64,000 nt of DNA from Candidatus Poribacteria bacterium (GTDB lineage Bacteria > Poribacteria > WGA-4E > PCPOR2b): assembly GCA_965218095.1 (NCBI GenBank), contig OZ244587.1, forward strand, positions 992,001-1,056,000, given 5' to 3'. The position numbers and the translations under genes were made by a program. Below the pieces are notes generated by a model. It saw nothing but the letters and a program-made list of their open reading frames with translations. It did not search any database and was not told the origin of the DNA. Of the stretch, positions 756 through 31,546 are shown piece after piece; position 1 is the stretch's first letter, and every line of letters begins with the position of its first letter.

Positions 756-896
756 AGATGGTCTCGCGTATCTCAAGATCGGAAAAATGGGTCGAGCGGC
801 TCAAATCTCTGTCGTAAGCCACTCGCCCCTGAAGCACTCATGTCGGTATCTGAATCTCGACCGACGCAGCTCAGATTTCCTGTTCCATCAGATTAG

Positions 897-1991: not shown

Positions 1992-2046
1992 AGAATCCTC
2001 CTATCTCGTGTGTAGTCCCGTCGACCGGTCAGGAACTTTCAAAATT

Positions 2047-2215
2047 CTAATCACCGAGATTCGCGATCTCCTTCGGAAGGAGCCCTGTTGCTTTGGCAAT
2101 AAGGCCAGCCGCAATTCCCTCTCTCAACATGGAACGCGCAATCTTCCTTTTTTCTCGCTGGCGTCCATTCAAAGGATTCTCGATAGTAGCGTTCAGAGAT
2201 TGCCTCGTCCTTGAT
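2047..2215 (-). pseudogene. C-terminal remnant of an Rpn/YhgA-like (PD-(D/E)XK transposase-like) protein
   Basis: Minus strand reads GRQREKRKIARSMLREGIAAGLIAKATGLLPKEIANLGD*, the typical Rpn C-terminal helix pattern; frameshifted upstream. Confidence 0.55.
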
Positions 2216-2223
2216 TCACTGAT

Positions 2224-3096
2224 TCAAAATGGCATATTCCCTGCGCCTTCTGAATCCTCTTCCGCCGATTGTGCCACGGTCTCAGGTGCTGGCGAGTTTG
2301 TTTGATCGCGGTCGGAAGCAGAGGTCGATTCAGGCTTTTCGGGCACTTCGCTTGATTTAACGGCAGCGTCAAGTTGACGGAGGCGATCTATCAACCCCTT
2401 GAAAAGCTCTGGTGACGATTCAGCGGCTTGCAATTCTGCTGAGAGTTGTGTCCACTGTAACTCTGTCATATCGTTGCGGGATTCAACGCCATAGTGACGT
2501 CTCACGTAGCTCCAGAAATCAGGCTTCGTGATGCCCCGCTGTTCAAGTCGCCCTTCAAGCTTGCCTGCCACCACAAACGCGGCTTTCTGTGCATTGGGGA
2601 TTTTATCAGTCCCGGATGCAGCGGGTAACTCCATCCGAGATTGATCGGGTTGTGTTTGTCGATGCAGGTAGAAGTTGAGCACTTCTTTGATGACCGGCAC
2701 CGGAAGCAACTGTTTAATGGCGTTGCGTTGCGCTTTATGAACCGCTTTTGTGAACGCAAAGGGATCTGTGCGATTGCTCACTCTTTTAGCTTGTTCATAA
2801 GCACCGTAACGCGAAGATCCGGTCACTGTATCTGTCGCCTTGGCGATTACAAGCCAGGACTGTTCACGCTCCTCATACTGAATGTCATCGACCTGAATTC
2901 CGCCCCGGCGATTCGCAGCTTCGTTTATCCCCGCCAGGGTTAAGCCTTCGACAATCTTTCCGCCCTGCTTAAATGAGTAGACGTAATCCCGAATCGCTTG
3001 CCCCGTCATCATTTCAACAATCGCTTGATCATCAACCTGATCCAAAACTTCATATTCGGCGACCGGAACAAGCTCATTTTTGGTGTCTTCAGCCAT
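2224..3096 (-). CDS. hypothetical protein, possible Rad52/Sak-like single-strand annealing protein
   Basis: 290 aa ORF with GGAGG RBS; AFTKAVHKAQRNAIKQLLP motif; acidic tail ending NMPF. Confidence 0.6.
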   Translation of the reverse strand: MAEDTKNELVPVAEYEVLDQVDDQAIVEMMTGQAIRDYVYSFKQGGKIVEGLTLAGINEAANRRGGIQVDDIQYEEREQSWLVIAKATDTVTGSSRYGAYEQAKRVSNRTDPFAFTKAVHKAQRNAIKQLLPVPVIKEVLNFYLHRQTQPDQSRMELPAASGTDKIPNAQKAAFVVAGKLEGRLEQRGITKPDFWSYVRRHYGVESRNDMTELQWTQLSAELQAAESSPELFKGLIDRLRQLDAAVKSSEVPEKPESTSASDRDQTNSPAPETVAQSAEEDSEGAGNMPF

Positions 3097-3162
3097 TTTT
3101 ATCCTCCAATCTGTTTACAGGAATATGAAAGGATTCCTGTGAATACCTAATTTTGTCAGGAT

Positions 3163-3191
3163 ATAGTAACAAATTTTATCACATATGTCAA
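3163..3191 (-). promoter_or_regulatory. sigma70-type promoter for the 2224..3096 gene
   Basis: TTGACA-17 bp-TACTAT on minus strand. Confidence 0.65.
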
Positions 3192-3224
3192 TATAAAATA
3201 TTGTTTTGTTAAAACCAGAAGGTC

Positions 3225-4010
3225 TTACATTGAATAATCGCGTTTTTCAAGGCGCCGACAGGAAATCCAAAAGAGTATTGCAGATAGAAGTATATGATAG
3301 AATACCATCCACGCCCAGACCGGTGCAATTCCCAGCAAAACATCAGTTTCAGATCTTACAATAGCGATTAACGCACACAAAGGGCTTAACATGCGCAGCA
3401 GATCCAATAAAACCGCCGGAAAAGCTATCAGTGGCGCCAATGCTGGCGTGATAAGCGGTATAAAAGTAAGCGATAGAACAACGGCGTAACTCCGCGAGAT
3501 TGCGTGAATAGATGAGCCAAGCAAGGTGAGGCTGCTGCCGAGTAAAAAAAACAATGTGAACCCCACAATAAACACCAGACCACACTGAAGCAGTTGATAG
3601 AGCGCCAATCCTCCTGTATAGACTGACAACCAAAAGAGTGGAATCGCCAGCCAAACACACCATGATGTGGCGATGAGCGCCCCCATCAGTTTACCGAATA
3701 GGAACTTCCGATAACCGATGGGTGTGAGATTGAGTAAGCTCCAATTGGAGCTTTGCCGTTCAATCCGACATGACTCAACGGCTTGCAGAGGGACAGCAAG
3801 GCCAAGTAAGACACAAAAAAAGAGTGGTACTAATATGGCGTAAATGCTTTCACCAACGTGAATCTGTGGTCGCCCGCGGCTCGATGCAAATTGCTCGAAT
3901 GCTGTGGCAAACAGCGTAAAAGCAAGAGTGCATAAAATAATAAGCTGAATACGGCGATACTTTGGTTGGTGTGCATAACATCGCAACTCTTTAATAATCA
4001 GGGCGATCAT
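3225..4010 (-). CDS. ABC-2 type transporter permease-like membrane protein
   Basis: Multiple TM helices; ERQSSNWSLLNLTP...FLFGKL pattern of ABC-2 permeases. Confidence 0.7.
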   Translation of the reverse strand: MIALIIKELRCYAHQPKYRRIQLIILCTLAFTLFATAFEQFASSRGRPQIHVGESIYAILVPLFFCVLLGLAVPLQAVESCRIERQSSNWSLLNLTPIGYRKFLFGKLMGALIATSWCVWLAIPLFWLSVYTGGLALYQLLQCGLVFIVGFTLFFLLGSSLTLLGSSIHAISRSYAVVLSLTFIPLITPALAPLIAFPAVLLDLLRMLSPLCALIAIVRSETDVLLGIAPVWAWMVFYHILLSAILFWISCRRLEKRDYSM

Positions 4011-4241
4011 CTGTTTATTGCAGGCTCCACAGAGTCTCGTAAGGAATTGTATCGTCGTTGCAGAAATTGAGTTTACATAACATTATAACCGATCTTGATA
4101 ACATGAGCAAGGTTAAGCTGCTAAGCTATCAAAAATGCTTGAACATTAAGAACGAATGTGTTAATCTATTGACATCGTTGTTGCCTCCGAGCAACTTGTT
4201 CTCACAACGATTATGCCCTTAGTTTACAGGAGATAATTAAG

Positions 4242-5216
4242 ATGGAAAAGCGTTTTTCTAAAGTACTACAGATACTCTCAACGATGATGGTACTTACCTT
4301 AGTTCTACTGAGCCGTCTTCATGCGGCTTACAATGGCGAGTGCTGGGTCATCAGCCGCGGTAATATCGTTCGTAAACTTAACGCCGACGGTTTGCTAGAT
4401 CCAACAATAATACCTAATCTTACGCAGGCGCAAGCCGCGGTGGTGAATCCTAAAGATGGCATCGTTTGGATAGCAGTGTCCGCTGCGCACGTTGTCTTCA
4501 GATATGACCCTTCAAGCCAAGATCCAAACCAGGCATTCAAGCAACTTCCTGAAATCAAACGTCCTCATTCGGTCTCAATCAACCCGATTGATGGTACGGT
4601 TTGGATAGGCGGGGAAGATATTGTCCAGAAGTTTTCAGCCGATGGTAGTCAGGTACTTGCGACAATTACTGATGTATACGAACCCGAAGTTGCGGTCAAC
4701 ACGACCGACGGCAGTTGTTGGGTGACGGACTCCAGGGGGAAAATTACCCGGCATAGTGCTACCGGTGCGGTCGCCGCTGCCTCCCCTGTGCAACTCAAAG
4801 AACCCAAGTATGTCGCGGTGAATTCTAAAACCGGTAATGCTTGGGTGACTGATCCTCATGCCAATGTTATCGTAAAATTGAATCCAAGCGGTCAGGAAGT
4901 GCTCAGAATTATTGATATTAAGCTTCCCATCTCTCCGAGCGTCAACCAGAAAGATGGCAATCTTTGGGTTGTGGCCGACTCCAATACCCTCGTTAAGTTA
5001 TCTGCGGACGGCCAAAAACTTCTGGAAGTCCCTGCTGGGATGGCGATTCTCTCAATGTGCGTCAATTCCCAAGATGGAAGCGTTTGGGCCGCGGATCAGG
5101 TTGGATCGACCTTTACAGGCGCCGTCAGTAAATTTTCCGCCAACGGACAGCAGTTGTTTGAAGTTGCGATCCCGAACCCCTCTTTCGTTTCTGTTGGGAA
5201 TTGGTCCGGACCGTGA
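4242..5216 (+). CDS. secreted beta-propeller repeat protein (NHL/Vgb-like)
   Basis: Signal peptide; about 7 repeats of VxVNxxDGxxWV. Confidence 0.8.
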   Translation: MEKRFSKVLQILSTMMVLTLVLLSRLHAAYNGECWVISRGNIVRKLNADGLLDPTIIPNLTQAQAAVVNPKDGIVWIAVSAAHVVFRYDPSSQDPNQAFKQLPEIKRPHSVSINPIDGTVWIGGEDIVQKFSADGSQVLATITDVYEPEVAVNTTDGSCWVTDSRGKITRHSATGAVAAASPVQLKEPKYVAVNSKTGNAWVTDPHANVIVKLNPSGQEVLRIIDIKLPISPSVNQKDGNLWVVADSNTLVKLSADGQKLLEVPAGMAILSMCVNSQDGSVWAADQVGSTFTGAVSKFSANGQQLFEVAIPNPSFVSVGNWSGP

Positions 5217-5220
5217 TTTG

Positions 5221-5318
5221 TGAAACGTAATGCGTAATGCGTGATGTGAAATGCGTATTACGTATTACGTATCGCGCCATTAGTCGATTCGCTGGTTCGC
5301 TTGTTCGTTGATCCGTCT
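5221..5318. repeat. degenerate heptamer and octamer tandem repeats forming an imperfect hairpin
   Basis: TGAAACG TAATGCG TAATGCG ... TATTACG TATTACG, followed by 8-mer GxTTCGC repeats. Confidence 0.7.
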
Positions 5319-5376
5319 CTCTCCCTCTCTTCCTACCCAATCCATCTGAACACAACCCACAAAAAGGGGTGATCGT

Positions 5377-7794
5377 ATGTATAGAAGAGCCTGTTTCCTT
5401 TTCCTATTGACACTTGCTTTCGTTGCACTTCACGCACACGCCCAACATACACCCGATTTCGAGGTGGATAGCACAAGTATTACGTTTTCCAACCCTTCTC
5501 CTCTTGAAGGAGAGGAAATCACGATTTACGTCACTGTCAAGAACATTGGGCAAGTGGCGCTGACGCTTAATGAAGATCTGATCGTCAACCTTTACGAGGG
5601 CGCCCCTGCAACAAATCCACTACAGATTATGTGTAGAGACGTGATCTTGGGATTGCAGCCCGGTAAGTCCGACAAAGTCAAAGCGCAATGGCGTCCACCC
5701 CCCGGAACAACTGAAGTTTATGCCCTCGTCAATCCACGCGGGAACAAGAAGGAGATCCAGGAAGCCAACCACAGCAATAACATTGCTCACACGTCGATTA
5801 CAGCAGCGCCGCGTACATTCCCCAAGGCAACTTCTGCACAGATCCAAACTGCTATTCAACGGGGGGTAGCGTGGGTGAAATCCCAGCGAGGGAAACATAA
5901 CCGAACCTGTTTGCAATGTGACACCAAAAACCAACTGATCTCAGTTTGCGTCATCTGCGGAGCAACCCTCAAAGGTTTACCCGAAGATCTTCTGCCCGGT
6001 CCTGCATGGGATTTCGGGGAAGACAGTACGCAAGAAACCGCGATCGCATTACTTGCATTGCTCTCCGCTGGTGTTCCTGTCTCAGATCCAGCTATGCAGC
6101 AAGGACTGGATTTCCTCATGTCTCAAGACTGGAATATTTTCCAGATCTATCAGCTTGCCATTCTTACGCCGGCGCTTATCGCTACCAATGATCCGGAATA
6201 CCGGCAACGCGCCCAGTTTGCGGTGAATCAGCTTGTGAAGGCTCAATTGCCGGTTGGCGGAGATGAATTCTCAGATCCAAGGGATGATGGCGGTTGGGGC
6301 TATGGTGCGACCGCCGACGGGGCGCATATGAACATGGTAATCTACGCACTTTACGCTGCAAAACAGTGGGGACTTGAGATACCAAAAAAGACCTGGGAGC
6401 GTGCAGAAAAATGGGTCCGTGGGAACCAAACGGAGACGGGTGGATGGCTCTACAATCTCATTGATGAAGGTTCACCTTGGGCGGAGGGCGTCTACGGCAG
6501 CATGACAGGAACAGGACTTTGGGCGCTCCGCGCCTGTGGCGTACCTGTTGAAGATGCACAGGTTCAGAAGGGACTAGAGTGGATCAAAAATTATTGGTCG
6601 CTTACCCGCAATCCCGGAGCGACTTCATGGCACTATTACTATCTCGTCTCGCTACAACGCTTCTGTGACATTCCCCCCAAACTAGAGATGCTTGTCGGGC
6701 ATAATTGGTATGAGGACATAGCCAGTATGCTCGTCACCGAGCAACAACCTGATGGGCGCTGGATCGATCACGAGGACTATTTCCCGACAACCTGCTTTGC
6801 CCTGATGTTTCTGACTCGCGCCCTGCCGAGACCGACTCACCCAGATCTGGGAGCCGTTAATCGCAGTCTTCGATTTTCTCCGCCCGCGCCGCGCGTTGGT
6901 GAACCTGTGCGGATCAGTGTGACATTGACAAACACAGGGACTCCACTCGATGCAACCGTTCAGGTCGATTTTTATGACGGGAATCCGGATGGGGGTGGCA
7001 AAAAGATCTATTCTCAAGAAGTCCTCTTTAGCAGCAATTTCGACGAAACGACGACTGCAATCAACTGGGTAGCAACCGAGGTTGGAACACATGAAATCTA
7101 TAGCATAGTTGATCCATACGAGCAGGTTGCGGATTTGAACCGCAGCGACAATATCATATCGCAGGAGCTAACCATCCGTCCAAAGTCTGCTGATGCCATC
7201 GATTCCGATACCGCTGTCCGCAAAATCGGCGATGGCGTATACCAGATTGGTAATGTCACCGTCAATGTCAATAATCGTGAAGTCATCACGACCGGTGAAA
7301 TCAATATCATCAGCGACGATACCATCATCGAGTTTTTTGCGGTTGGCAAACTTGGCAAAACACATGAAAGCCTCATTATGCTTGACGCCGAACCCATGCA
7401 TATACAGGTTGCATTACTCCGCTTGAACATGGATGCGGGCATGAACCTGACTGTTGAAGGTGATCCGCACACCCCTCAAGGTGATCCGGTTGAGATCTGG
7501 GTGGAGTGGGAACGCAGTGGGAAAACCATCCGCCATCGCGCCGAAGAGTTAGTATGGAACACGATCGGAGGACACCCAATGCAGCAAACCCATTGGGTTT
7601 TCACAGGTGGGCGCTTCATCCGCAACCAATTCACCGCACAACTGTTCCACAATGTCATTGCTGTCTACCGCGACCCCGACTCGATTTTCAATCACCCGCT
7701 GCCCGGTGGTAAAGACGATCGAACCTACCGCGTCAATACGGATATCGTGCCGCCCAAAGGCACCTCGGTGAGAGTCATCGCCCAACAGATATAA
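5377..7794 (+). CDS. secreted multidomain protein: CARDB - prenyltransferase/squalene oxidase repeat barrel - CARDB - YdjY-like domain
   Basis: Signal peptide; CARDB motifs (VNPRGNKKEIQEANHSNN, VDPYEQVADLNRSDN); QW-like motifs (DDGGWGY, ETGGWLY, QQPDGRW); C-terminal GKTHESLI...WVFTGG. Confidence 0.75.
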   Translation: MYRRACFLFLLTLAFVALHAHAQHTPDFEVDSTSITFSNPSPLEGEEITIYVTVKNIGQVALTLNEDLIVNLYEGAPATNPLQIMCRDVILGLQPGKSDKVKAQWRPPPGTTEVYALVNPRGNKKEIQEANHSNNIAHTSITAAPRTFPKATSAQIQTAIQRGVAWVKSQRGKHNRTCLQCDTKNQLISVCVICGATLKGLPEDLLPGPAWDFGEDSTQETAIALLALLSAGVPVSDPAMQQGLDFLMSQDWNIFQIYQLAILTPALIATNDPEYRQRAQFAVNQLVKAQLPVGGDEFSDPRDDGGWGYGATADGAHMNMVIYALYAAKQWGLEIPKKTWERAEKWVRGNQTETGGWLYNLIDEGSPWAEGVYGSMTGTGLWALRACGVPVEDAQVQKGLEWIKNYWSLTRNPGATSWHYYYLVSLQRFCDIPPKLEMLVGHNWYEDIASMLVTEQQPDGRWIDHEDYFPTTCFALMFLTRALPRPTHPDLGAVNRSLRFSPPAPRVGEPVRISVTLTNTGTPLDATVQVDFYDGNPDGGGKKIYSQEVLFSSNFDETTTAINWVATEVGTHEIYSIVDPYEQVADLNRSDNIISQELTIRPKSADAIDSDTAVRKIGDGVYQIGNVTVNVNNREVITTGEINIISDDTIIEFFAVGKLGKTHESLIMLDAEPMHIQVALLRLNMDAGMNLTVEGDPHTPQGDPVEIWVEWERSGKTIRHRAEELVWNTIGGHPMQQTHWVFTGGRFIRNQFTAQLFHNVIAVYRDPDSIFNHPLPGGKDDRTYRVNTDIVPPKGTSVRVIAQQI

Positions 7795-8028
7795 AATCGG
7801 GCACAGGAGTAAACGAATCGGCGAACCAGCAAATCGACAGATGGGCAAATAGGCATGATTCGAGAATCAAATCATTTGTCGTTGAAGGAGAGAGGTGAGA
7901 AGTCAGATGTCTCGCGCATTTGTCGCGCCGAATGAACTCTCTATCTGACGGTCGTTCTTATGCGTGTATTGTAGTAGAGTCTTGGCAGGTTGCTCCGCAA
8001 CGCAAACCCATTCGTTGAAAAGGTGTTA

Positions 8029-8165
8029 ATGGTGAACATTCACGATAGCGAATACAAGCATCTTCGTCTCGATCTATCGGGGAAGCTATTCTCAAATCGG
8101 ACGATATTTCGTCAACTGCTTGAGACCTTCATCAAGGAAGAGTGGGTGAATCATCTCGATTTCGC
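8029..8165 (+). pseudogene. N-terminal stub of an Rpn family recombination-promoting nuclease/putative transposase
   Basis: MVNIHDSEYK...LFSNRTIFRQLLETFIKEEWVNHLDF matches the Rpn N-terminus, then breaks off. Confidence 0.6.
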
Positions 8166-8219
8166 GAGATATAGTGTAAATCACCATTTTCATCTTCATA
8201 GAGTTATCCCGTGACAAAC

Positions 8220-9341
8220 ATGATTATTGGCATTCCGAAAGAGATTAAGTCATCAGAATATCGCGTCTCAATGCTACCTGTCGGCGTTGAACAACTGGTT
8301 CAAGCCGGCCACACCGTCTGCGTCGAAGTTGATGCAGGCATCGGCAGTGGTATACCGAATGAAGATTACGTTGTGGCAGGCGCGGAGTTACTGGAAACGA
8401 GCGCCGAAGTCTTCGATGCCGCAGATCTCATCGTCAAGGTCAAAGAACCACTGCCAGAAGAATACGATTATTTGCATGAAGGCCAGATTGTTTTTACCTA
8501 CCTCCACTTCGCCGCAAACGAAGATTTGATGCGTGCGATGCTCGACCGAAAGGTCATCTGCGTGGCGTACGAGACGATTCAGACAGCAGACGGGGAACTT
8601 CCGCTGCTCACACCGATGAGTGAAGTTGCTGGAAAGATGGCGATTCAAGAAGGCGCAAAGTACCTTGAAAGACCGATGATGGGACGGGGAATCTTGCTCG
8701 GTGGGGTTACTGGCGTTGCGCCCGCGAAAGTCCTGATCGTCGGCGGTGGGATTGTCGGCACGAACGCCGCTAAAGTCGCAGCCGGACTTGGTGCAGAGGT
8801 GATCATCATGGATGTGAACCTCCGTCGCCTGCGCTATCTCGATGATATTATGCCCTCCAACGTCGTAACCTTAATGTCCGATCCGCACGCGATTCGTGAA
8901 AAGGCCAGGGAGGTCGATCTGCTGATTGGCGCGGTATTGATCCCGGGGCGGCGTGCGCCTCATCTCGTCACGGAGGAGATGGTCAGCACAATGAGACCCG
9001 GTGCGGTGATTATTGATGTCGCCGTCGATCAGGGCGGCTGCATCGAAACAACGCACCCCACCACGCACCAGGCTCCGACATTCATCAAACACGGCATCGT
9101 CCACTACTGCGTGGAGAATATGCCCGGCGCTGTTGGACGGACTTCGACGTATGCACTGGCAAATGTGACCCGTCCTTATGTTCTTGCGCTCGCTAACAAA
9201 GGCTGGAAAGGTGCGATGCGTGAAGATGACGCTTTGGCTAAGGGCTTGAACACTGCTGACGGAAAGATCTGTTTTCAAGCAGTAGCGGAGGCGTTTGGGA
9301 TGGCGCATTGTCCGGCAGAGGCGTTAATTTCTGATTCATAA
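8220..9341 (+). CDS. ald: alanine dehydrogenase
   Basis: IGIPKEIK, VKVKEP, FTYLHFA, GGGIVG, DVAVDQGGC, HYCVENMPGAV motifs. Confidence 0.95.
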   Translation: MIIGIPKEIKSSEYRVSMLPVGVEQLVQAGHTVCVEVDAGIGSGIPNEDYVVAGAELLETSAEVFDAADLIVKVKEPLPEEYDYLHEGQIVFTYLHFAANEDLMRAMLDRKVICVAYETIQTADGELPLLTPMSEVAGKMAIQEGAKYLERPMMGRGILLGGVTGVAPAKVLIVGGGIVGTNAAKVAAGLGAEVIIMDVNLRRLRYLDDIMPSNVVTLMSDPHAIREKAREVDLLIGAVLIPGRRAPHLVTEEMVSTMRPGAVIIDVAVDQGGCIETTHPTTHQAPTFIKHGIVHYCVENMPGAVGRTSTYALANVTRPYVLALANKGWKGAMREDDALAKGLNTADGKICFQAVAEAFGMAHCPAEALISDS

Positions 9342-22208: not shown

Positions 22209-25200
22209 ATGCCCCACGTCGTCAAGTATGGCAAACGTGAACGATTGTCCTTTGCAAAAATTCCGGAGATTATGGATCTCCCGGATCTGATTGAGGTTCA
22301 AAAATCTTCCTACGAAGAATTCCTTCAACGAAATATCCCTCCAGAAAAACGTAAAGATAAAGGTCTCCAAGCCGTTTTCAAGGAAATCTTTCCAATCCCC
22401 GACTTCAGCGAAACGTCCGAACTCAGGTTCGTTAGTTATTCCCTCGGCACCCCTAAGTACGACATCAATGAATGCCAATCCCGCGGATTCAGTTACGCCA
22501 TGCCAATCAAGATCTGTGTTCAATTGGTTCTCAGGGAACAAGACAACGACACCGGTGAAAATCAGCTTATTGACATCAAAGAGTCCGAAGTATACATGGG
22601 TGAAATCCCCCTGATGACCGAAAATGGCACCTTCATTATCAACGGCTCTGAGCGGGTGATTGTCAGCCAGTTGCAGCGATCTCCCGGCGCGACGTTTGGG
22701 GAGGAGACCCACACCAGCGGACAAAAACTCCATATAGCGCGAATTATCCCGTATCGCGGGGAATGGATCGAATTTGAACATGACATCAAAGACCAGATCT
22801 ATGTCCGGCTAGCTCGACGGAAAAAGATGTTCGTGACGATTCTGCTTCGAGCGCTCGGCTGGGAAACTGATGAAACCATCCTCAAGATGTACGCTAAGAC
22901 AGAGTGGGTCAGCCTCAACGACTCACTTATTGACCGGGTGATAGCTACTCCTGTCAAACATCTTGTCACTGAAGATGTCTCGCTTGAAGCGAATACGGCA
23001 TTAACAGCAGAACAGATTGATGAGTTACTTAAGGCAGGCATCAGCGAAGTTGAAGTTTTCCACAAGACGAAGACGGAGCGGGTCAGTCTGGATGACTCCC
23101 CGATTGGTCGGGTGACGTCTGTTCCTGTCAAACACTCTGTCACTGGAGATGTCTCGCTTAAAGCGAATACGGAATTGACAGCAAAACAGATTGATGATTT
23201 GCGTAAGCGAGATCCGCTGTTTCAAGTTGATTTGAATTCCGTTGCAAGGCCGGAACCGACACAGTTTGATCCTGATCCAGATTTCGATTATAAGTCACCG
23301 GAGTGGCAATCGCTAAAACGGCAGTGTCGGGAAAAGGCTGGTTGGAAATGCGAGCAATGTGGTATCGATCTTAGCGATGACCCCAAGTATCTTGATACCC
23401 ACCATGTAAAAGGCAGCCAGCATAACAATCTCGAAGACCTTATGGCTCTCTGTATTGGTTGCCATGCGGAACAACAACCGGATGAAAGACATAAACACCT
23501 CAAAAAAGAGGACCGTTATAAAGAATTTATGGATTCATACGGTGACAACTGGAAGTCTGCTATCCTCCAATGGAAGTCTGCTGTCCTCCAAAGCGATTTG
23601 ACGGATGGTGCATCAGTGTCGGATGAATGGTGCCGACAGTTTAAGGACAATGGTGCTTCTCTGTCCCCTTCCGCAATCGTACAGGTAAAGACAGAAAGTC
23701 GACGCTGGCGTGTATCGAACAAAAACAGCAGAGGTAACTTTACCATTGAGAAAGCAGGGGATACCTTCAATGTCTATCAAGATCTTGAGATTGAAGTTTT
23801 TCACAAGACGGAGCGGGTCAGTCTGGATGACTCCCTGATTGGTCGGGTGACGTCTGCTTCTGTCGAATACAAACGCCTTGTCACTGCAGATGTTTTACTT
23901 GAAGTGAATACGGAATTGACAGCAGAACAGATTGCGGATTTGCTTGAGGCAGGCGTCGGTGAGGTTGAGGTTCTAGACGCAGATGATGCAGAGGAGATTC
24001 GTTTCCTGCGGAATACGCTTGAGCGTGACCTTCAATTAGATTACACGCTGCCGCGGATTTTTCAAGTACCGTTACCGTCAGACCTCGAAGGCGATTTGAC
24101 GGATGATGCACCGGTGTCAGATGCATGGCTCCGAAAGTTTAAGGACAATGGTACTTCTCTGTCCCCTTCCGCAACCGTGCAGGTAAAAGCAGAGGGGCGC
24201 TATCGTATATCCAACAAAAACAGTAGAGATAACTTCACCATTGAGAAAGCAGGGGATACCCTCAACGTCTATCGTGGGAGTATCCAGGATCTGGCGGTTG
24301 TGGATATTTTCCGTAAGTTGCAACCGGGCGATCCTCCCACAATTGAAAGCGCATACAACCGTTTTGAAAAGATGTTCTTCGACCCGGTGCGCTATGACCT
24401 TGCAGAGGTAGGTCGGTACAAGCTCAATAGGAAGCTCGGTGATCTCTCCCTGTATCGGAATGGGAACGAAATGGTGGGTGAGCATGTGCGTATTCTGCGT
24501 AAGGAGGACATCGCCGCGGTTCTCAAATACCTGATCCAGGTCCAGAATGGAAATGGGGAGATGGACGACATTGATCACCTCGGCAACCGTCGCGTGCGGG
24601 CAGTCGGGGAACTGTTACAAAATCAGGTGCGAATGGGGATGCAGCGCGTTACGCGTGCCACCCGAGAGCGGTTGACGGTTCAAGAACTGGAGAGTATGAC
24701 GCCTCCTGATTTAATCAATCCGAAACCGCTGACCGCTGCGATTAAAGATTTCTTTGGCTCCAGCCAACTTTCCCAATTTATGCAGCAGGCCAACCCACTG
24801 GATGAATTAACCCACAAACGCCGCTTGAGCGCGTTGGGTCCAGGCGGACTGCATCGAGAACGCGCAACCTTTGAGGTCCGAGACGTTCACCGTACCCACT
24901 ATGGGCGGGTGTGTCCAATCGAGACGCCCGAAGGTCCTTCGGTTGGGTTGATTGTTTCCTTGAGCACTTACGCACGAGTAAACGCCTACGGCTTTATGGA
25001 AACACCTTATCGAAAGGTGGTGAATGGGCAAGCGACTGACCAGATTGACTACCTGACAGCGGATAAGGAGGATGCATTCACCATTGCGCAGGCGCACGCT
25101 GTCCTTGATAAGGATGGAAATATGGCAGATGATCTGATGGTCACGCGGCACAAGGACGACTTCCCCCGGAAACCCGCACAGGAGGTCGATTACATTGACG

Positions 25201-27227
25201 TTTCGCCGAAGCAGATTGTTGGCGTCTCTGCCGCACTTATTCCGTTCCTCGAACATGATGATGCAAACCGCGCCTTGATGGGGAGTAACATGCAAAGGCA
25301 AGCGGTACCGCTGCTCCGCCCGCAAGCTCCGCGTATTGGGACCGGTATGGAGTACAAGGCAGCCCATGACTCTGGCGCAGTTGTGTTGGCAAAGCGGGAT
25401 GGTGTCGTGGAGAGCGTTTCTGCCTCCGAAATCATTATCCGCACGGATGACACCTTTCGGATTGATGGTGGAGAACAGTCATTCAGCGAGATGGGATACG
25501 ATGTCTACCGGTTGGTGAATTTCAAGCGATCGAACAGTGGCACCGGTCTTCATCAACGCCCGTGTGTGGCTGCCAAGGAAGTGGTGAAAGCAGGCCAGGT
25601 GATTGCCGATGGCACCTCGACGGAAGATGGGGAACTTGCCCTCGGTAGCAACGTTCTGGTTGCGTTCATGTCTTGGGAAGGATATAATTATGAGGATGCG
25701 CTCCTCATAAGCGAATCACTGGTAACTGATGATACCTACACCTCCATCCACATCGAAGAGTTTGAGGTGGAAGCGCGGGATACGAAGATGGGGAGGGAGG
25801 AGATCACCCGGGACATCCCGAACCTCTCAGAGGAAGCCTTGAGTCAACTGGATGAAGAGGGAATTATTCATGTCGGTTCGATTGTTCGTCCCGGAAGTAT
25901 TCTGGTCGGCAAGGTTACCCCGAAAGGGGAAAGCGACCTGGGTCCAGAGGAGAAACTTCTTCGGGCTATTTTTGGTGAGAAAGTCGGTGAGGTGCGTGAC
26001 GCTTCCAAGTACGTCAGACCCGGCACAGAAGGTGTAGTGGTTGATGTGAAGGTCTTCTCCCGGAGAGAGCGAGAACGCGATCGCCAGACCGAGTTGCGGG
26101 AGCTTGCTAAAGAGAAGGAAGTCGAAAAAGAGTGGCAGGCGAAGTGCATGTTAATCAACCAGCGCAAGAACACAGAGATTCGTAACACTCTGCTCGGCAA
26201 AACGCTCGCTAGTAGCGTCTCTGATGGCGCAGAACTTCACGCCCAGCAGGGAGATGTTGTCACAGAGGAGTTGCTGGATGCAGGGGCGCCCCTCGAACAC
26301 TTCCATGTCACGGACGCTAATGCAATGGACCGCATCCAGCGCATTCGACAATTGGCGCAAGGGCGCATTGATGCCCTGACCGCCGAGCAGGAAGATCAGC
26401 TTGAGAAGATTCGCAAGGGGGATGAGTTGAAGCCCGGCGTTCTCAAACTGGTGAAGGTTTATGTGGCGAACCATCGCAAGATTGCTGTCGGCGACAAGAT
26501 GTCTGGGAGACATGGCAACAAGGGGGTGGTCGCGAAGATACTCCCGCAAGAAGACATGCCGTACCTGGAAGATGGAACCCCAGTTCAGATTGTAATGAAC
26601 CCGTTGGGCGTCCCCGGACGAATGAATGCCGGACAGATTCTGGAGGCGCATTTGGGCCGGGCAGCGGAGAAACTCGGCTTGTACATCACTACACCGGTCT
26701 TTGATGGCGCGAATGAGGAGGAGATTCGTGAGCTCTTGCACAAAGCCGGACTGCCCGAAAGCGGAAAAGCGAAGTTGTATGATGGACGTACGGGGGAACC
26801 TTTTGCACAGGAAGTCACCGTCGGACATGGGTATGTTCTCAAGCTGAATCATCTCGTTGATGATAAAATCCACGCTCGCAGCACAGGCCCTTATTCGTTG
26901 GTGACGCAGCAACCGCTCGGCGGCAAGGCGCAACAAGGCGGACAACGGTTCGGCGAGATGGAGGTGTGGGCATTGGAGGCGTATGGCGCCGCATACACCC
27001 TTCAGGAGTTGCTCACGATTAAATCCGACGATGTCGTCGGAAGGAGTAAGATCTACGAAGCAATTGTCAAAGGGGAGAATGCTCCTACGCCGGGCACTCC
27101 AGAATCGTTTAACGTCCTGGTAAAAGAATTACAAAGCCTCTGCCTCGATGTGAAATTAGAACAAGCATCTGGTGACGCAGAGACATTTGACATTGACGTC
27201 ACGAATTGGACGGCAGAAAAAGAATGA
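22209..27227 (+). CDS. rpoB: DNA-directed RNA polymerase subunit beta, with large nested insertions including an HNH domain
   Basis: [61 protein letters not shown] motifs; 1672 aa. Confidence 0.98.
22896..23976 (+). repeat. three tandem copies of a ~55 aa beta-lobe insertion module in rpoB (starts near 22896, 23070, 23805)
   Basis: KTE(W/R)VSL(N/D)DS.I.RV...NT(A/E)LTA.QI.(E/D)L repeated; DNA near 23050-23130 is almost identical to 23791-23865. Confidence 0.85.
23280..23549 (+). other. HNH endonuclease-like domain embedded in frame in RpoB
   Basis: [20 protein letters not shown]...[28 protein letters not shown]...H. Confidence 0.85.
23592..24275 (+). repeat. two copies of a ~65 aa module in rpoB (23592-23780 and 24090-24275)
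   Basis: DLTD.A.VSD.W.R.FKDNG.SLSPSA.VQVK.E...[20 protein letters not shown] occurs twice. Confidence 0.85.
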
Positions 27228-27316
27228 GGCGTGAAACGTAAAGCGTAAGAGGGAATTAGGGCGTATTGACAAATAGCTCCAAAGACTCATCAGATCGACA
27301 GAAAAGGAGACGCCAG

Positions 27317-30300
27317 ATGTCGAAAAACCTGAACAATTTTGACGCGATTTCAATCCGGATTGCTTCGCCGGAACAGATCAAGGAATGGGTAAAACCGACC
27401 GCATGCCACCAACGGGCCAGTACGTGCACAATAGGAAACTGCACATGCGGCGAAGTCCAGAAGCCCGAGACTATTAATTATCGCACATTCCGTCCCGAAC
27501 GAGACGGTTTGTTCTGTGAGGCGATCTTCGGGCCTCAGAAAGATTGGGAGTGTGGCTGCGGTAAGTACAAACGGATTAAACATAAAGGGGTGATTTGCGA
27601 TCGATGCGGGGTCGAAGTCACGCAGCAGAAGGTGCGCCGTGAACGGATGGGGTATATCCAGTTAGCGGCGCCGGTCTCGCATATCTGGTTCTTCAAAGGA
27701 CTCCCCTCGCGGATCGGGCTCTTTTTAGATCTCCCATTTCGTGATATAGAACGTGTCATCTATTTCGAGTCGTTTATTGTTCTGGAAGTCAATGATCCTG
27801 ACTGTGATCTGGAGGTGAAGCAACTCCTGACAGAGGAGGAGTACACCCAATTGACAACACAGTTTCCTGATGGCTTCCGTGCCGGCATGGGGGCGGATGC
27901 GATTAGGGAACTGCTGGAGCAGATTGATCTAGATCAAGAAGTGGAAACCCTGCGTGCAGAACTCGCCGAAACCGCAAGCAAGCAGAAAGCTCGGAAACTC
28001 TCCAAGCGGTTGAAGCTGGTGCTCGGTTTCAAAAAATCAGGCAATCAGCCGCACTGGATGATCCTTACGGTGATTCCGGTCATCCCCCCGGACTTACGTC
28101 CACTGGTTGCTCTCGACGGGGGACGCTTCGCCACCAGTGATCTGAATGATCTCTACCGGCGGGTGATTAACCGGAATAACCGCCTGAAGCGACTGATGGA
28201 ACTCCGGGCGCCCGAGGTAATTATCCGCAATGAGAAACGAATGCTCCAGGAAGCTGTAGATGCACTGCTGGATAATGGTCGACATGGACGCGTGGTGCGG
28301 GGGCCGGGCAATCGTCCGCTGAAATCCCTTTCCGATATGCTCAAAGGGAAGCCGGGGCGATTTCGTCAGAACCTGCTTGGCAAGCGTGTAGACTACTCAG
28401 GACGGACGGTCATCGTGGTCGGTCCTGAGCTCCAGTTGGACCAGTGTGGCCTCCCGAAGAAGATGGCATTGGAGCTATTTAAGCCGTTCATCATCCATAA
28501 GCTGCAAGCGAAGGGCTATGCCCACACCATCAAACGTGCGAAGAACATGGCAGAACAGGTCTCGCCAGAGGTGTGGGAGGTCCTGGAAGAGGTGATTGAC
28601 GAACATCCGGTTTTGCTGAACCGCGCCCCGACACTACACCGATTAGGGATTCAGGCGTTTCAACCCCTCTTGGTGGAGGGAAAGGCAATCCGGATCAATC
28701 CGCTTGTGTGTGAGGCATTCAATGCGGACTTCGATGGGGACCAGATGGCGGTGCACGTCCCGTTGAGCGTCGAAGCACAGATCGAGGCAAAACTACTGAT
28801 GATGGCGACACGAAACCTCCTGAAGCCTGCTCATGGTGACGCGATTGCGGTACCAAGTAAGGATGTCGCGCTCGGTTGCAATTTCCTTACGAAGGAGATT
28901 CCGGAAAATCGACGGGAGGAGGTGTGCCGGGTATCCATCCCACGGACCTATCGCGATACGGGTGAGATCATCCTTGCGCATGAGTGCGGTGTACTGGGGC
29001 TGCACGATCCAGTAAAGCTCTACCTTGATGGAGCAACGCAGCTAATTGAGACAACGGTGGGTCGAGTCATCTTCAACCAGATTGTTCCGCCGGAACTGCG
29101 ATTTACGGACCCCGAAACGAGAGAATCGCTACCTTTTATCAACCTGGAGATGCGCTCTGGAGATCTCTCCAAGCTGGTGTCCCGTGCGTTTGAGGAGCTG
29201 GGCAATCGCCGCACCGTTGAGTTTATCGATGAGTTAAAACGGCTCGGTTTTCATTACGCAACCCTGGCCGGGGTCTCCATCGCCATGCAGGACATGATCA
29301 TCCCTCCCGAGAAGCAGGGGTTGATAACGACTGCACGGAAGCAGGTGGAACAGATTGAAGCCGATTTCCAAAGTGGCGGTATGAGTGAAGGCGAACGGTA
29401 CAACAAAGTCATTGATATCTGGCATCAACTGATTGCGCAAATCGAAACCGCCTTGTTTGATGGACTGGCACAGGGACGGGATGATGAGGTTGAAGGGTTC
29501 AATCCCGTCCATATCATGGTGGACTCCGGCGCGATTTCCCGAAGCAAGCGGGATTCAATTCGCCAGTTGAGCGGACTGCGCGGGTTGATGACCAAGCCCT
29601 CCGGAGAAATTATTGAGCAGCCAATCGAGTCCTGCTTCCACGAAGGGTTGTCAGTTCTCGAATACTTCATTTCTACGCACGGAGCGCGGAAGGGACTTGC
29701 CGACACAGCGATTAAGACCGCCAGCAGCGGATACTTGACGCGGAAACTGGTTGATGTCGCGCAAGATGTGATAGTGACGATGATCGACTGTGGAACATTG
29801 GGTGATGTTACCAAGACGGCAGGCGAAGAGGAAGATAATACACTTGCTGAACGGATTTTCGGACGCACAGCGGCGGAAGACAATGTCGACCCGAATACAG
29901 GTGAACTGCTTGTCTCAAAGGATGATCGGATTACCCACCAAATAGCACAGCAGATCGAGGCGGTTGGTATCCCCGAAGTCCACGTCCGATCGGTGCTGAC
30001 ATGCGAAGCCCTGCATGGTGTGTGTGCGAGGTGTTACGGGACCGATTTGACAAGCGGACATCTCGTGGACGTCGGGGAGGCAATTGGTATCATTGCTGCA
30101 CAATCGATTGGGGAGCCGGGGACGCAGTTGACAATGCGGACGTTCCACACGGGCGGTACCGTCAGTGGCGGCGGGTTCCAATCGAGGGTTGAAGCTCGGC
30201 ACGACGGGATAGTGCAGTACCACAACAACGTCAGGTTCGTTGAACGACCGGTTCAGGCTCAATCAGCAACCAACGCTCAACCATCAGAAGGGGAAGTCTT

Positions 30301-31546
30301 TGAAAAAACTATCATCTCTCGAAATGCGCAACTCCGCATCGTTGATGCGAACGAACGCACAGTGGAACGGCACAATGTAGATGTCGGAGCGCGTCTCTGT
30401 GTCGAAGATGGACAGGTAGTAAGCAAAGGGGATGTCCAAAACGGCGTACAACCCACCCTGCTGCTGGAATGGGATCCGTATCGAGTGCCGATTCTGACGG
30501 AGGAAGAAGGGCACGGCGTGTTCAAAGATATTATCGAAGGGAAAACGATGCGCGAGGACAAAGCCACCGGTTTGGCAGAGTGGGTTATTATTGAATATAA
30601 AGGGGAGGATCAACCGCAAATTGAGATCCACAACGATGCTGGAGAAGTCCTCGCCAGTTACCTGATGCCAACAGGTGCACACCTTTCTATCACAGATGGT
30701 GAAGAGGTTAGTAAGGGCACGGTCCTGGCCCGTCTCCCTCGCGAGACAGCAAAGAGCCGAGACATCGTGACAGGGTTGCCACGGGTCACGGAACTCTTTG
30801 AGGCGCGACGGCCGAAGGACACCGCTGTCATCTCCAAGATTGAAGGATATGTCGAATTAGAGAGCCCTAGCCGTGGTGTACGCATCCTGCGCGTGGTGGA
30901 CGGAGACTTTCAGGAGAGCCATCGCATTCCACAGGGCAAACACCTAATTGTGCAGAATAATGACAGGGTAGCAGCAGGAGAACGGTTGACAGATGGACCA
31001 ATCAACCCGCACGATATCCTCGAAGTGAAAGGGGGGGAGGCAGTCCAGAACTACCTAGTCGATGAGGTGCAGGACGTGTATCGGAAGCAGGGCGAACGCA
31101 TCAATGACAAGCACATTGAAGTGATTGTGCGGCAGATGCTGAATAAGGTAAAGATTAAGCATCCAGGCGATACGGATTTCCTCGAAGAGGACGAAGTGGA
31201 CCGGTCGATCTTTAATCGAATAAACCGCCGTGTTCAGGAAAACGACGGACAGCCTGCCACAGCGGAGCCGATTCTCCAGGGCATCACAAAAGCCTCTCTT
31301 TCCACTGAGAGCTTCATTTCCGCGGCATCGTTCCAACAGACCACCAATGTCCTGACGAAGGCTTCGGTCATCGGCAAGCGCGATCGGCTGGTGGGTTTGA
31401 AGGAGAATGTCATAATGGGACACCTTATCCCCGCAGGAACGGGGGTGGGGCAGTTCCGGAAGATTCAGATTTTCCCCACAACGGAACCACAACCAGAGCT
31501 TCCAGATGCTTCACCGTTGCCAATCGATGAACAGGCGGCCGATTGA
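27317..31546 (+). CDS. rpoC: DNA-directed RNA polymerase subunit beta'
   Basis: KPETINYRT, Zn-finger CxC...CxxC, catalytic [20 protein letters not shown]; AAGGAG RBS before ATG 27317. Confidence 0.98.

What the first reader, a model, noticed from the sequence alone, without database searches (positions are those of the whole stretch)
22896..24275. Nested domain accretion in the RpoB beta lobe: triplicated module plus two copies of a foreign module
Seen: three tandem ~55 aa copies of the beta-lobe module start near 22896, 23070 and 23805; copies 2 and 3 share about 80 nt of near-identical DNA, so that duplication is recent. Copy 2 is split by a foreign module (LFQVDL...[28 protein letters not shown]...[12 protein letters not shown]), which is itself split by the HNH domain. 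A second, unsplit copy of the foreign module sits at 24051-24275, at a different site just before [12 protein letters not shown]. Inference: at least three successive insertion or duplication events in an essential gene. The foreign module behaves like a mobile in-frame protein domain and may be the carrier that brought in the HNH.
Basis: partly seen in the sequence, partly recalled or inferred. Interest (0 to 1): 0.8.

Follow-up and report, generated by a model that had tools for sequence, protein, structure and literature searches.

The report
Nuclease-bearing nested insertions in poribacterial rpoB
The RNA polymerase beta subunit gene of this sponge-associated bacterium carries, in frame, repeated lobe modules, two copies of an unnamed small domain that is also found inside many unrelated proteins, and an intact-looking HNH nuclease that appears to move between species.

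Summary
rpoB (22209-27227, 1672 aa) has three copies of the BBM2/BEAN lobe module at the SI1 position. Copy 2 is split by a ~75-aa module, F, which is itself split by an HNH domain. A second, intact F sits before [12 protein letters not shown].

F matches no Pfam, NCBIfam, PHROGs or PADLOC model. It occurs 16 times in 15 proteins of this genome, including SecA, SecD and RpoN, and in 167 of 176 genomes of the phylum (Candidatus Poribacteria). It entered RpoB and SecA only in one sub-clade.

The HNH keeps every catalytic and zinc residue and has a patchy distribution. In a relative it sits at the same loop of the second F. A different nuclease (MTES_1575) occupies that loop in another relative.

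The synonymous divergence of the whole insertion region between this genome and two relatives is about a third of that of the flanking core. This points to horizontal exchange.

Best reading: a non-splicing, homing-type nuclease nested in a promiscuous insertion domain. F did not bring in the HNH. If anything, the HNH carried F into copy 2. The near-identity of copies 2 and 3 looks like gene conversion, not a recent duplication.

The parts
22209..27227 (+). rpoB, RNA polymerase beta subunit, 1672 aa, the only copy in the genome
22896..23069 (+). BBM2/BEAN lobe module, copy 1 (aa 230-287, motif VTED)
   Evidence: Aligns to the first SI1 repeat of a solved RpoB.
23070..23216 (+). BBM2/BEAN copy 2, N-terminal part (aa 288-336, motif VTGD)
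23217..23234 (+). F1 module, first strand LFQVDL (aa 337-342)
   Evidence: Corresponds to strand 1 in the AF2 model of F2.
23235..23591 (+). HNH nuclease insert (aa 343-461). CxxC, HH, N and CxGCH are all present. It ends with a 21-nt tandem repeat at 23550-23591 ([14 protein letters not shown]).
   Evidence: invariant C45 C48 H62 H63 N70 C79 C82 H83. PHROGs HNH families, best E 9.6e-11. Foldseek top hits are HNH nucleases, but E >= 0.085.
23592..23780 (+). F1 module, remainder (aa 462-524: two helices and four strands)
23781..23804 (+). Last strand of BBM2/BEAN copy 2 (DLEIEVFH, aa 525-532)
   Evidence: D7, 91% to the end of copy 1.
23805..23984 (+). BBM2/BEAN copy 3 (aa 533-592, motif VTAD)
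23985..24044 (+). Host lobe segment [15 protein letters not shown]... that precedes the second insertion site
   Evidence: Conserved in all 21 relatives examined.
24045..24278 (+). F2 module, unsplit (aa 613-690; HMM envelope 24048-24275)
   Evidence: AF2 pLDDT 90.

Best explanation
The region is the lineage-specific SI1 (beta-i4) insertion of the RNA polymerase beta lobe. It is built from BBM2/BEAN repeats and has been colonised in layers.

Layer 1. A small, autonomously folding alpha/beta domain (F, ~75 aa, unnamed) was inserted in frame just before [12 protein letters not shown] in the ancestor of three poribacterial genera. Across the phylum, F sits in loops of many unrelated proteins.

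Layer 2. A selfish HNH endonuclease domain inserted in frame into the loop after the first strand of F. It is related to free-standing HNH genes of the same phylum and to phage HNH endonucleases. It has no splicing domain and no start signal of its own, so it is made as part of beta and stays there.

Layer 3. The HNH, together with its F flanks, was copied into BEAN copy 2. This happened by ectopic repair or by unequal crossing-over followed by a deletion. The whole variable block has since been exchanged between lineages by recombination, as expected for homing with co-conversion of flanks.

Shown:
- the anatomy
- the distribution of F
- the intact HNH motif
- the patchy distribution of the HNH
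- the shared insertion point
- the discordant synonymous divergence

Inferred:
- that the HNH cuts the empty F loop
- that this cutting drives the spread
- that beta works with the block in place
For: (1) Position. RpoB aa 8-330 align to residues 10-331 of a solved 1359-aa RpoB, and aa 682-797 to residues 355-461. So copies 1 and 2 correspond to its two SI1 repeats, and aa 331-681 are extra.

(2) F as a family.
- An HMM iterated on six-frame ORFs finds 16 copies in 15 of 41,890 ORFs.
- The hosts are SecA, SecD, RpoN, Wzy_C ligase, YibE/F, COX15, an ABC exporter, a histidine kinase, HEAT proteins and others.
- 167 of 176 phylum genomes have it.
- 2,532 of 1.84 billion cluster representatives match at E <= 1e-3.
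- The AF2 model has pLDDT 90.

(3) F was gained in one clade. In RpoB it is found in 21 of 29 family genomes: own genus, g4 19/20, g6 1/1, and none in g2, g3, g5 or g7. The SecA copy is found in the same clade only, 22 genomes.

(4) The HNH.
- All catalytic and zinc residues are invariant in 4 rpoB-borne and 7 free-standing copies.
- It hits 13 phage HNH families.
- dN/dS is 0.38-0.67.

(5) Patchiness.
- The family is in 72 of 176 genomes, and several free copies carry stops.
- Only 4 of 21 F-bearing rpoB genes have it.
- These 4 lie in three separated branches of the rpoB core tree.

(6) Shared insertion point. The HNH sits in F1 (G000, G017, G057) and in the native second-site F (G011). Pfam MTES_1575 (E 5e-28) sits at the same point in G017's F2.

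(7) Horizontal exchange.
- G000 vs G017: dS of the insertion region is 0.55 (453 codons), against 1.38 and 1.65 in the flanks.
- G000 vs G057: 0.48, against >1.7 in the flanks.
- Control pair G017 vs G057: flat, 0.63 against 0.59 and 0.51.
- G011 and G057 differ by dS 0.20 in the core but 0.44 in the HNH.

(8) No in-frame start with a Shine-Dalgarno-like motif lies before the HNH.
Against: - No cleavage activity or target has been shown.
- The HNH copies are only 58-74% identical in protein, so no transfer is recent.
- dN/dS of 0.4-0.67 is relaxed, so some copies may be decaying.
- The Pfam HNH score is below its cut-off (14.7 vs 21.4 bits), and the Foldseek matches to HNH nucleases are weak (E >= 0.085).
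- Loss by recombination between the direct repeats could give the patchy pattern without any homing.
- The low dS of the insertion region could partly reflect its different composition (GC 0.46-0.48 vs 0.52-0.56).
- The N-terminal 100 codons also show lowered dS (0.48-0.88), which the model does not explain.
- The tree of F copies is unresolved, so the order of events in layer 3 is open.
- Nuclease-bearing F was seen only in RpoB.
Confidence: 0.6

Rival explanations
1. Ordinary vertical domain accretion. The BEAN repeats, F and the HNH were gained once in a common ancestor by duplication and domain shuffling. The simple architectures of most relatives are later losses through recombination between the direct repeats. 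Nothing is mobile today, and the HNH is a relic.
For: - The junctions are identical in G000, G017 and G057, which fits a single origin.
- The 31 nt that are identical at 23070 and 23805 would allow precise deletion of the 735-bp unit.
- The HNH copies are old, at 58-74% identity.
Against: - dS of the insertion region is about a third of the flank dS for G000 against two g4 species, while the control pair is flat.
- The sister species G009, G057 and G011 (core dS 0.11-0.20) carry three different architectures.
- In G011 the HNH lies in a native second-site F.
- A second nuclease family occupies the same loop in G017.
- The catalytic residues are all kept.
Confidence: 0.2
2. Domesticated nuclease. 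The HNH (and MTES_1575 in relatives) tethered to RNA polymerase serves the cell, for example by cutting DNA or RNA at the transcribing enzyme, in defence or in conflict resolution. F is a structural spacer or interaction module.
For: - Nucleases of two families sit in frame in beta and beta-prime in several genera. This could point to a use linked to the polymerase.
- Purifying selection is detectable (dN/dS < 1).
- The rpoB copy is the only member of this HNH family in the genome.
Against: - Only 4 of 21 F-bearing rpoB genes have the HNH, and close relatives do without it.
- Free-standing copies are often broken.
- The insertion sites differ between genera.
- F occurs in cytoplasmic proteins (SecA, RpoB, RpoN), and by its position after the first membrane segment of SecD it probably also lies outside the cytoplasm (the location is inferred). 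This argues against one shared partner.
Confidence: 0.15
3. Assembly artefact. The repeats were mis-joined, and the real gene has fewer copies.
For: Short-read contigs break at the repeat edges 23070-23100, 23806-23834 and 24190-24230. The order of the pieces is therefore not proven by those contigs.
Against: - The genome is a single 6.35-Mb contig.
- A 764-nt contig of run X1 spans 23071-23834 without a mismatch.
- G017, G057 and G011 come from other assemblies and have the same junctions.
- The frame stays open through all junctions.
Confidence: 0.03

Closest known systems
Beta SI1 (beta-i4) lineage-specific insertion of bacterial RpoB, made of BBM2 repeats, called BEAN domains in PMC11515920
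   Same: Same place in the beta lobe: copies 1 and 2 align to the two SI1 repeats of a solved RpoB. The TGD/E-type motif is present, as VTED and VTGD. The paper (abstract and sections 2.2 and 2.3 read) describes BEAN as the recurrent insertional domain of RNAP beta, with some 'type 4*' proteins carrying further multidomain insertions.
   Different: Here there are three copies. One of them is interrupted by a foreign domain that itself carries a nuclease. Copy number varies from 1 to more than 3 within one genus. The sections I read do not mention nuclease domains.
Inteins with a nested homing endonuclease
   Same: An in-frame insertion in a conserved essential gene, with a nuclease nested in a loop of a carrier domain. 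Empty carriers resemble mini-inteins. The distribution is patchy and there are signs of horizontal spread.
   Different: There is no Hint or splicing domain (no such Pfam hit at E <= 1). There is no Cys/Ser/Thr at the upstream junction and no His-Asn plus nucleophile at the downstream junction. The insert should therefore stay in the mature protein.
ShiLan-type in-frame homing insertion in a phage methylase (PMC11855218)
   Same: A non-splicing insertion that keeps the host frame open, carries an HNH and shows a homing-like distribution (abstract and Discussion read).
   Different: There the HNH is read in another frame, from its own GTG, and the host gene is dispensable. Here the HNH is in the host frame, has no start signal of its own, and the host is the cell's only rpoB.
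Rickettsia palindromic elements (RPE), MITE-like repeats inserted in frame in many unrelated genes (passages of PMC10969869 read)
   Same: One short module is found in frame inside many unrelated, often essential, proteins of one lineage.
   Different: RPEs are recognised as DNA repeats of ~150 bp. F copies share only 17-30% protein identity with F2 and show no DNA similarity beyond the F1/F2 pair. F has a conserved, confidently predicted fold, so it behaves as a protein domain family, not as a recent DNA repeat.
Free-standing and phage HNH endonucleases; REase MTES_1575 (PF18741)
   Same: The HNH core aligns with free ORFs of 117-357 aa in the phylum at 37-50% identity, and with phage HNH families. 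The domain in G017's F2 passes the Pfam cut-off for MTES_1575 (97.4 vs 38.2 bits).
   Different: Here they are internal domains of RNA polymerase subunits rather than separate genes or C-terminal domains of helicase-like proteins.

Membership tests
BBM2/BEAN insertion of RNAP beta (SI1 position) | Inserted in the beta lobe at the SI1/beta-i4 position | tested here: met
   aa 8-330 align to residues 10-331 of solved chain 7f0r_C, and aa 682-797 to residues 355-461.
BBM2/BEAN insertion of RNAP beta (SI1 position) | TGD/E motif of RNAP-beta BEAN domains (PMC11515920, section 2.3) | tested here: met
   Copy 1 has VTED, copy 2 VTGD, and copy 3 VTAD, which deviates at one residue.
BBM2/BEAN insertion of RNAP beta (SI1 position) | Fold of two antiparallel bracket-like helix-strand-strand elements | not tested
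HNH endonuclease | Beta-beta-alpha-metal motif with His-His, Asn and His, plus two CxxC zinc ligand pairs | tested here: met
   C45, C48, H62, H63, N70, C79, C82 and H83 are invariant in 11 of 11 aligned copies.
HNH endonuclease | Significant match to curated HNH profiles | tested here: inconclusive
   Pfam PF01844 scores 14.7 bits, below its 21.4 cut-off. But 13 PHROGs HNH endonuclease families match, best E 9.6e-11, and tblastn hits Staphylococcus phage HNH genes at E 2e-4.
HNH endonuclease | HNH fold | tested here: inconclusive
   AF2 core pLDDT is 87-95. The Foldseek top hits are Cap5, Cas5-HNH, T4 endonuclease VII, GVE2 HNH and McrA, but with E >= 0.085.
HNH endonuclease | Metal-dependent nuclease activity | not testable with these tools
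   Needs a biochemical assay.
Intein | Hint splicing domain | tested here: not met
   No Hint or intein family at E <= 1 in the whole protein or in the F1+HNH segment. F is only ~75 aa.
Intein | Nucleophile (Cys/Ser/Thr) as first residue, and His-Asn followed by a nucleophile at the downstream junction | tested here: not met
   F1 runs from L337 to Y523-Q524, followed by D525. The HNH insert runs from N343 to Q461. Residues after F vary among the 16 copies.
Homing endonuclease element | Sporadic presence among close relatives, at one defined point of a conserved target | tested here: met
   4 of 21 F-bearing rpoB genes carry it. The point after strand 1 of F is the same in F1 and in G011's second-site F. 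The sister species G009, G057 and G011 differ.
Homing endonuclease element | History of the element differs from that of the host gene | tested here: met
   Insertion-region dS is 0.48-0.55 against flank dS of 1.4 to >1.7 for G000 vs G017 and G057. The control pair is flat.
Homing endonuclease element | Cleaves the empty site and is copied into it by repair | not testable with these tools
   Needs cleavage and co-existence assays.
MITE/RPE-like in-frame DNA repeat | Family recognisable at the DNA level, with terminal inverted repeats | tested here: not met
   Only F1/F2 share DNA similarity. The other 14 copies are 17-30% identical to F2 in protein.

The most novel reading that the evidence does not exclude
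Poribacteria harbour a class of selfish elements not yet described. These are nuclease domains (HNH, MTES_1575) that live permanently in frame, without any splicing, inside surface insertions of the essential RNA polymerase subunits beta and beta-prime. They spread between species and genera by homing with co-conversion. The widespread F module is their preferred landing pad in rpoB. More boldly, the many empty F copies in SecA, SecD, RpoN and other proteins are what remains after such elements lost their nuclease, the way mini-inteins are left by inteins.
Probability: 0.35. Interest if true: 0.9.

Novelty: new variant of a known kind. Interest (0 to 1): 0.8.

Why it matters
- Persistence without splicing. 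Homing endonucleases are thought to persist in essential genes only when an intron or intein removes them from the product. Here an intact-looking HNH, and in relatives a PD-(D/E)xK-type nuclease, stays inside the RNA polymerase subunits. That would be a different way for a selfish nuclease to be harmless: sitting in an insertion-tolerant surface domain.
- Sites that tolerate cargo. It marks exact loops of beta, beta-prime and of the F domain that tolerate cargo of more than 100 aa.
- An unnamed domain family. F has about 2,500 cluster representatives, no Pfam model and no clear structural relative. It is inserted in core machinery such as SecA, SecD, sigma-54 and RpoB.
- A caution for phylogeny. 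rpoB is used as a phylogenetic marker, and part of it here has a history that differs from the rest of the gene.

Tried and rejected
The single-protein scan returned only 4 loci.
- **The protein-atlas search on F2** gave no usable hit.
- **Fold searches with the F2 model** found nothing convincing. Foldseek against PDB gave best E 0.53, with profilin-like rows. VIA-align over 48,161 chains gave best Z 4.9 and none >= 5. This does not show that the fold is new.
- **NCBIfam and PADLOC on the 16 F copies** gave 0 meaningful families. **PHROGs on F2** gave none.
- **The search for homologous proteins with A1** (39-147 aa only) returned 5 small proteins, none with a name.
- **Profile search of PDB sequences with A2** gave only cytochrome c rows, which are CxxCH look-alikes, and McrA at E 0.15.
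- **The tree of F C-terminal parts** (19 rows, 61 columns) left 10 of 16 inner branches open. So it could not order the F1/F2 duplication.
- **Read laying**:
  - In runs X5 and X6 (other studies), high-depth contigs cover 22700-23099 and 23805/23947-24500. Nothing at 95% likeness or more lies on 23100-23805, which is exactly the repeat-bounded 735-bp unit.
  - No contig joins across the gap. This cannot be told apart from a more divergent allele, so I make no claim of a polymorphism.
  - RNA-library run X8 has contigs on 23544-23735, but that does not prove transcription.
- **Intein and MITE readings** were considered and rejected (see the membership tests).
- **Literature**: searches found no paper on nuclease domains inside RNA polymerase subunits, nor on such insertions in Poribacteria. 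Subscription journals and supplements were not searched, and F may have been named somewhere I could not see.
Full report
**1. Observation**

The window holds rpoB at 22209-27227 (+), followed by rpoC at 27266-31546. rpoB translates without stops to 1672 aa and carries all Rpb2 Pfam domains.

- A module starts at 22896, 23070 and 23805.
- Copy 3 is 92% identical to copy 2 over 66 nt. A further 23 nt just upstream are 91% identical.
- A second repeat pair links 23585-23778 with 24083-24273, at 86-88% identity.

The residue map shows:
- BEAN copy 1 at aa 230-287
- copy 2 split into aa 288-336 and aa 525-532
- copy 3 at aa 533-592
- module F1 in two pieces, aa 337-342 and aa 462-524, on either side of a 119-aa insert (aa 343-461)
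- module F2 at aa 613-690, unsplit, directly before [21 protein letters not shown]

The genome has no second rpoB.

**2. The lobe module**

A sequence search of solved structures aligns aa 8-330 to residues 10-331 of a 1359-aa RpoB, and aa 682-797 to residues 355-461. Copies 1 and 2 therefore correspond to the two repeats of the SI1 (beta-i4) insertion. Everything between aa 331 and 681 is additional.

The copies carry VTED, VTGD and VTAD. PMC11515920 (abstract and sections 2.2 and 2.3 read) names the recurrent insertional domain of RNAP beta BEAN and gives a TGD/E motif for it. The older name BBM2 is recalled; I saw it only as a term count in a search listing. The triplicated module is thus a known kind of lineage-specific insert.

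Its copy number is very unstable. Among 21 related rpoB genes, the stretch from ETDET to PGDPPT measures:
- 186-191 aa in 12 genomes
- 239-317 aa in 5 genomes with extra BEAN pieces
- 301 to more than 578 aa in the 4 genomes with a nuclease

**3. The foreign module F**

A search of the own genome with F2 found weak matches inside other long ORFs. An HMM built from them and iterated over 41,890 six-frame ORFs converged on 16 copies in 15 ORFs.

Pfam identifies the hosts as SecD, a Wzy_C O-antigen ligase, YibE/F, a multihaem cytochrome, SecA, sigma-54, an AI-2E transporter, a DUF5916/CBM9 protein, COX15/CtaA, DUF5683, an ABC exporter, a histidine kinase, two HEAT-repeat proteins and RpoB twice. 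No Pfam family covers the module itself. NCBIfam, PADLOC and PHROGs give nothing either.

The 16 copies align over ~77 columns, with W52, L72 and Y75 nearly or fully invariant and 17-30% identity to F2. AlphaFold2 on this alignment gives a confident small alpha/beta domain (pLDDT 90): strand, two helices, four strands. It has no convincing relative in the PDB.

Distribution:
- The record titles of three relatives' contigs read Candidatus Poribacteria.
- In this phylum, 167 of 176 genomes have the module, with 1 to 32 matches each; at most 32 candidates were scored per genome.
- In 1.84 billion cluster representatives, 2,532 match at E <= 1e-3 and 947 at <= 1e-10, and many have several copies.
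- Hosts among 26 of these that I scanned include pentapeptide-repeat proteins, a caspase-domain protein, baseplate-J proteins and sensors.

**4. F is gained in particular lineages**

In the family of the window's genome, F at the second rpoB site is present in 21 of 29 genomes: own genus, g4 19 of 20, g6 1 of 1. It is absent from g2, g3, g5 and g7.

The SecA segment holding F matches over its full length in exactly the same clade (G000, 20 of 20 g4, G005). In the other genomes with a match (173 of 176 in all), the alignment stops where F begins, and SecA is about 70 aa shorter.

So F is an in-frame domain that has entered essential genes at the genus-to-family scale. It is not a DNA repeat: apart from F1/F2, no copies resemble each other as DNA.

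**5. The HNH**

Pfam scores the insert below the cut-off. Other evidence supports the assignment.
- It matches 13 PHROGs HNH endonuclease families, best E 9.6e-11.
- It matches Staphylococcus phage HNH genes by tblastn.
- The top Foldseek rows for the AF2 model are HNH nucleases, though weak.
- In an alignment of 4 rpoB-borne and 7 free-standing copies, both CxxC pairs, the His-His, the Asn and the last His are invariant.
- dN/dS among the four rpoB copies is 0.38-0.67.
- No in-frame start with a Shine-Dalgarno-like motif precedes it. It should therefore be made only as part of beta.

The family is in 72 of 176 genomes, mostly as free ORFs of 117-357 aa, and several of these carry stops. The own genome has only the rpoB copy.

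**6. Where the nucleases sit in relatives**

- G017 and G057 share this genome's architecture, junction for junction.
- G011 has one BEAN copy and the HNH inside its single, second-site F, at the same point after strand 1. That F is 90-92% identical to the empty F of its sister species.
- In G017 the second F carries a different nuclease at the same point, Pfam MTES_1575, E 5e-28.
- Of 21 second-site F copies, 19 are empty.
- Four genomes have five extra residues in this very loop.
- Outside this clade, the HNH lies in rpoB at another site (G025, and by ORF length G098) and in rpoC (G071, G108, and by ORF length G152). No F hit was found in the three ORFs I scanned (G071, G025, G108).
- MTES_1575 lies inside rpoC of G019 and G174.

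So F did not bring in the HNH. The HNH invaded F. For the copy in BEAN 2, the nuclease more likely took F along.

**7. Horizontal exchange**

The rpoB core tree puts G000 with G005 (support 100/99). It groups G011 with G009 and G057 (99/97), and places G017 elsewhere in g4. The complex cassette therefore sits in three separated branches.

| Pair | dS, insertion region (aa 230-690) | dS, flanks |
|---|---|---|
| G000 vs G017 | 0.55 (453 codons) | 1.38 and 1.65 |
| G000 vs G057 | 0.48 | >1.7 |
| G017 vs G057 (control) | 0.63 | 0.59 and 0.51 |

The raw share of differing codons among identical residues shows the same pattern: 0.22-0.26 in the insertion region against 0.41-0.49 in the flanks.

Conversely, G011 and G057 have core dS 0.20 but HNH dS 0.44.

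The variable block of this genome thus belongs to the g4 pool, although the rest of the gene does not. The N-terminal 100 codons also show lowered dS, which I cannot explain.

**8. How copy 2 came to hold F1**

Two routes fit.
- Ectopic copying of F(HNH) into BEAN 2.
- Unequal crossing-over between the similar strands ...EVEVFHK and ...VVDIFRK, which duplicates BEAN-linker-F, followed by a deletion. In G057 the tail after F1 reads TIQNLEV, like the SIQDLAV after F2.

The F tree cannot decide between them.

Within this genome F1 and F2 are 78% identical in protein. In G017 and G057 the figures are 70% and 57%. The near-identical stretches here are therefore probably conversion tracts, not a sign of a recent duplication.

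**9. Comparison with known systems, and novelty**

- The BEAN repeats are known.
- The nested logic is that of an intein with a homing endonuclease, but the defining splicing features are absent.
- The closest printed precedent I found is the ShiLan insertion. It is non-splicing, keeps the host frame open and bears an HNH. There, however, the HNH is read in another frame and the host gene is dispensable (PMC11855218).
- RPEs are the precedent for one short module in many genes, but they are DNA repeats (PMC10969869).
- In-frame fusions of LAGLIDADG genes with mitochondrial rps3 are recalled only.
- Eight literature searches found nothing on nuclease domains inside RNA polymerase subunits, nor on such insertions in Poribacteria.

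I rate the finding a new variant of a known kind, with high interest.

Noticed in passing
L084 (G019 rpoC, 396-7220) and L085 (G174 rpoC, 1720-8862): The beta-prime subunits of two relatives (2275 and 2381 aa, against 1426 aa here) carry a Pfam MTES_1575 restriction-endonuclease-like domain in frame inside Rpb1 domain 5 (E 5e-22 and 3e-23). Six more ORFs of 2092-2511 aa with this domain may be the same case.
   Followed up: partly
L075 (G025 rpoB, 204-5645, minus strand) and L077 (G108 rpoC, 1451-7999): The same composite cassette lies in rpoB of one species (after ...NPYGFLETPYRPIVDG) and in rpoC of another species of the same genus. It consists of short YKVTxVPDG repeats, then the HNH, then W.ITEVNN.ECSLKVG.VIS repeats.
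   Followed up: partly
window 23550-23591: A 21-nt tandem duplication ([14 protein letters not shown], 95%) lies at the downstream junction of the HNH with F. It is present in all four rpoB-borne copies but not in the free-standing HNH genes. It may be a scar of the insertion.
   Followed up: partly
L065, L066, L067, L068 (rpoB of G056, G007, G060, G062): Four relatives have five extra residues (SSDE[GV]SS-type) in the F loop, exactly where the HNH or MTES_1575 sits in others. This could be a footprint of an imprecise loss.
   Followed up: no
rpoB of G013, G018 and G015 (places listed): A BEAN-like stretch, 60-69% identical to aa 236-294 of this RpoB, lies near the N-terminus, between the equivalents of aa 46 and 48. 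BEAN modules therefore also occupy a second site in some species.
   Followed up: no
L025 (own SecA, F at aa 699-775): The F insertion in the SecA wing/scaffold domain is confined to the same three genera as the rpoB F insertion (22 genomes). This suggests a burst of F gains in their common ancestor.
   Followed up: partly
window 22227-22526 (rpoB aa 7-106): Synonymous divergence from G017 and G057 is also lowered here (0.48 and 0.88, against 1.4 to >1.7 further in). It may be a second recombination tract or a composition effect (GC 0.40-0.44).
   Followed up: no
window 23100-23805: In two runs from other studies, contigs at high depth cover both sides, but nothing at 95% likeness or more lies on this repeat-bounded 735-bp unit, and no contig joins across it. 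It is a lead for a presence/absence polymorphism, not a finding.
   Followed up: partly
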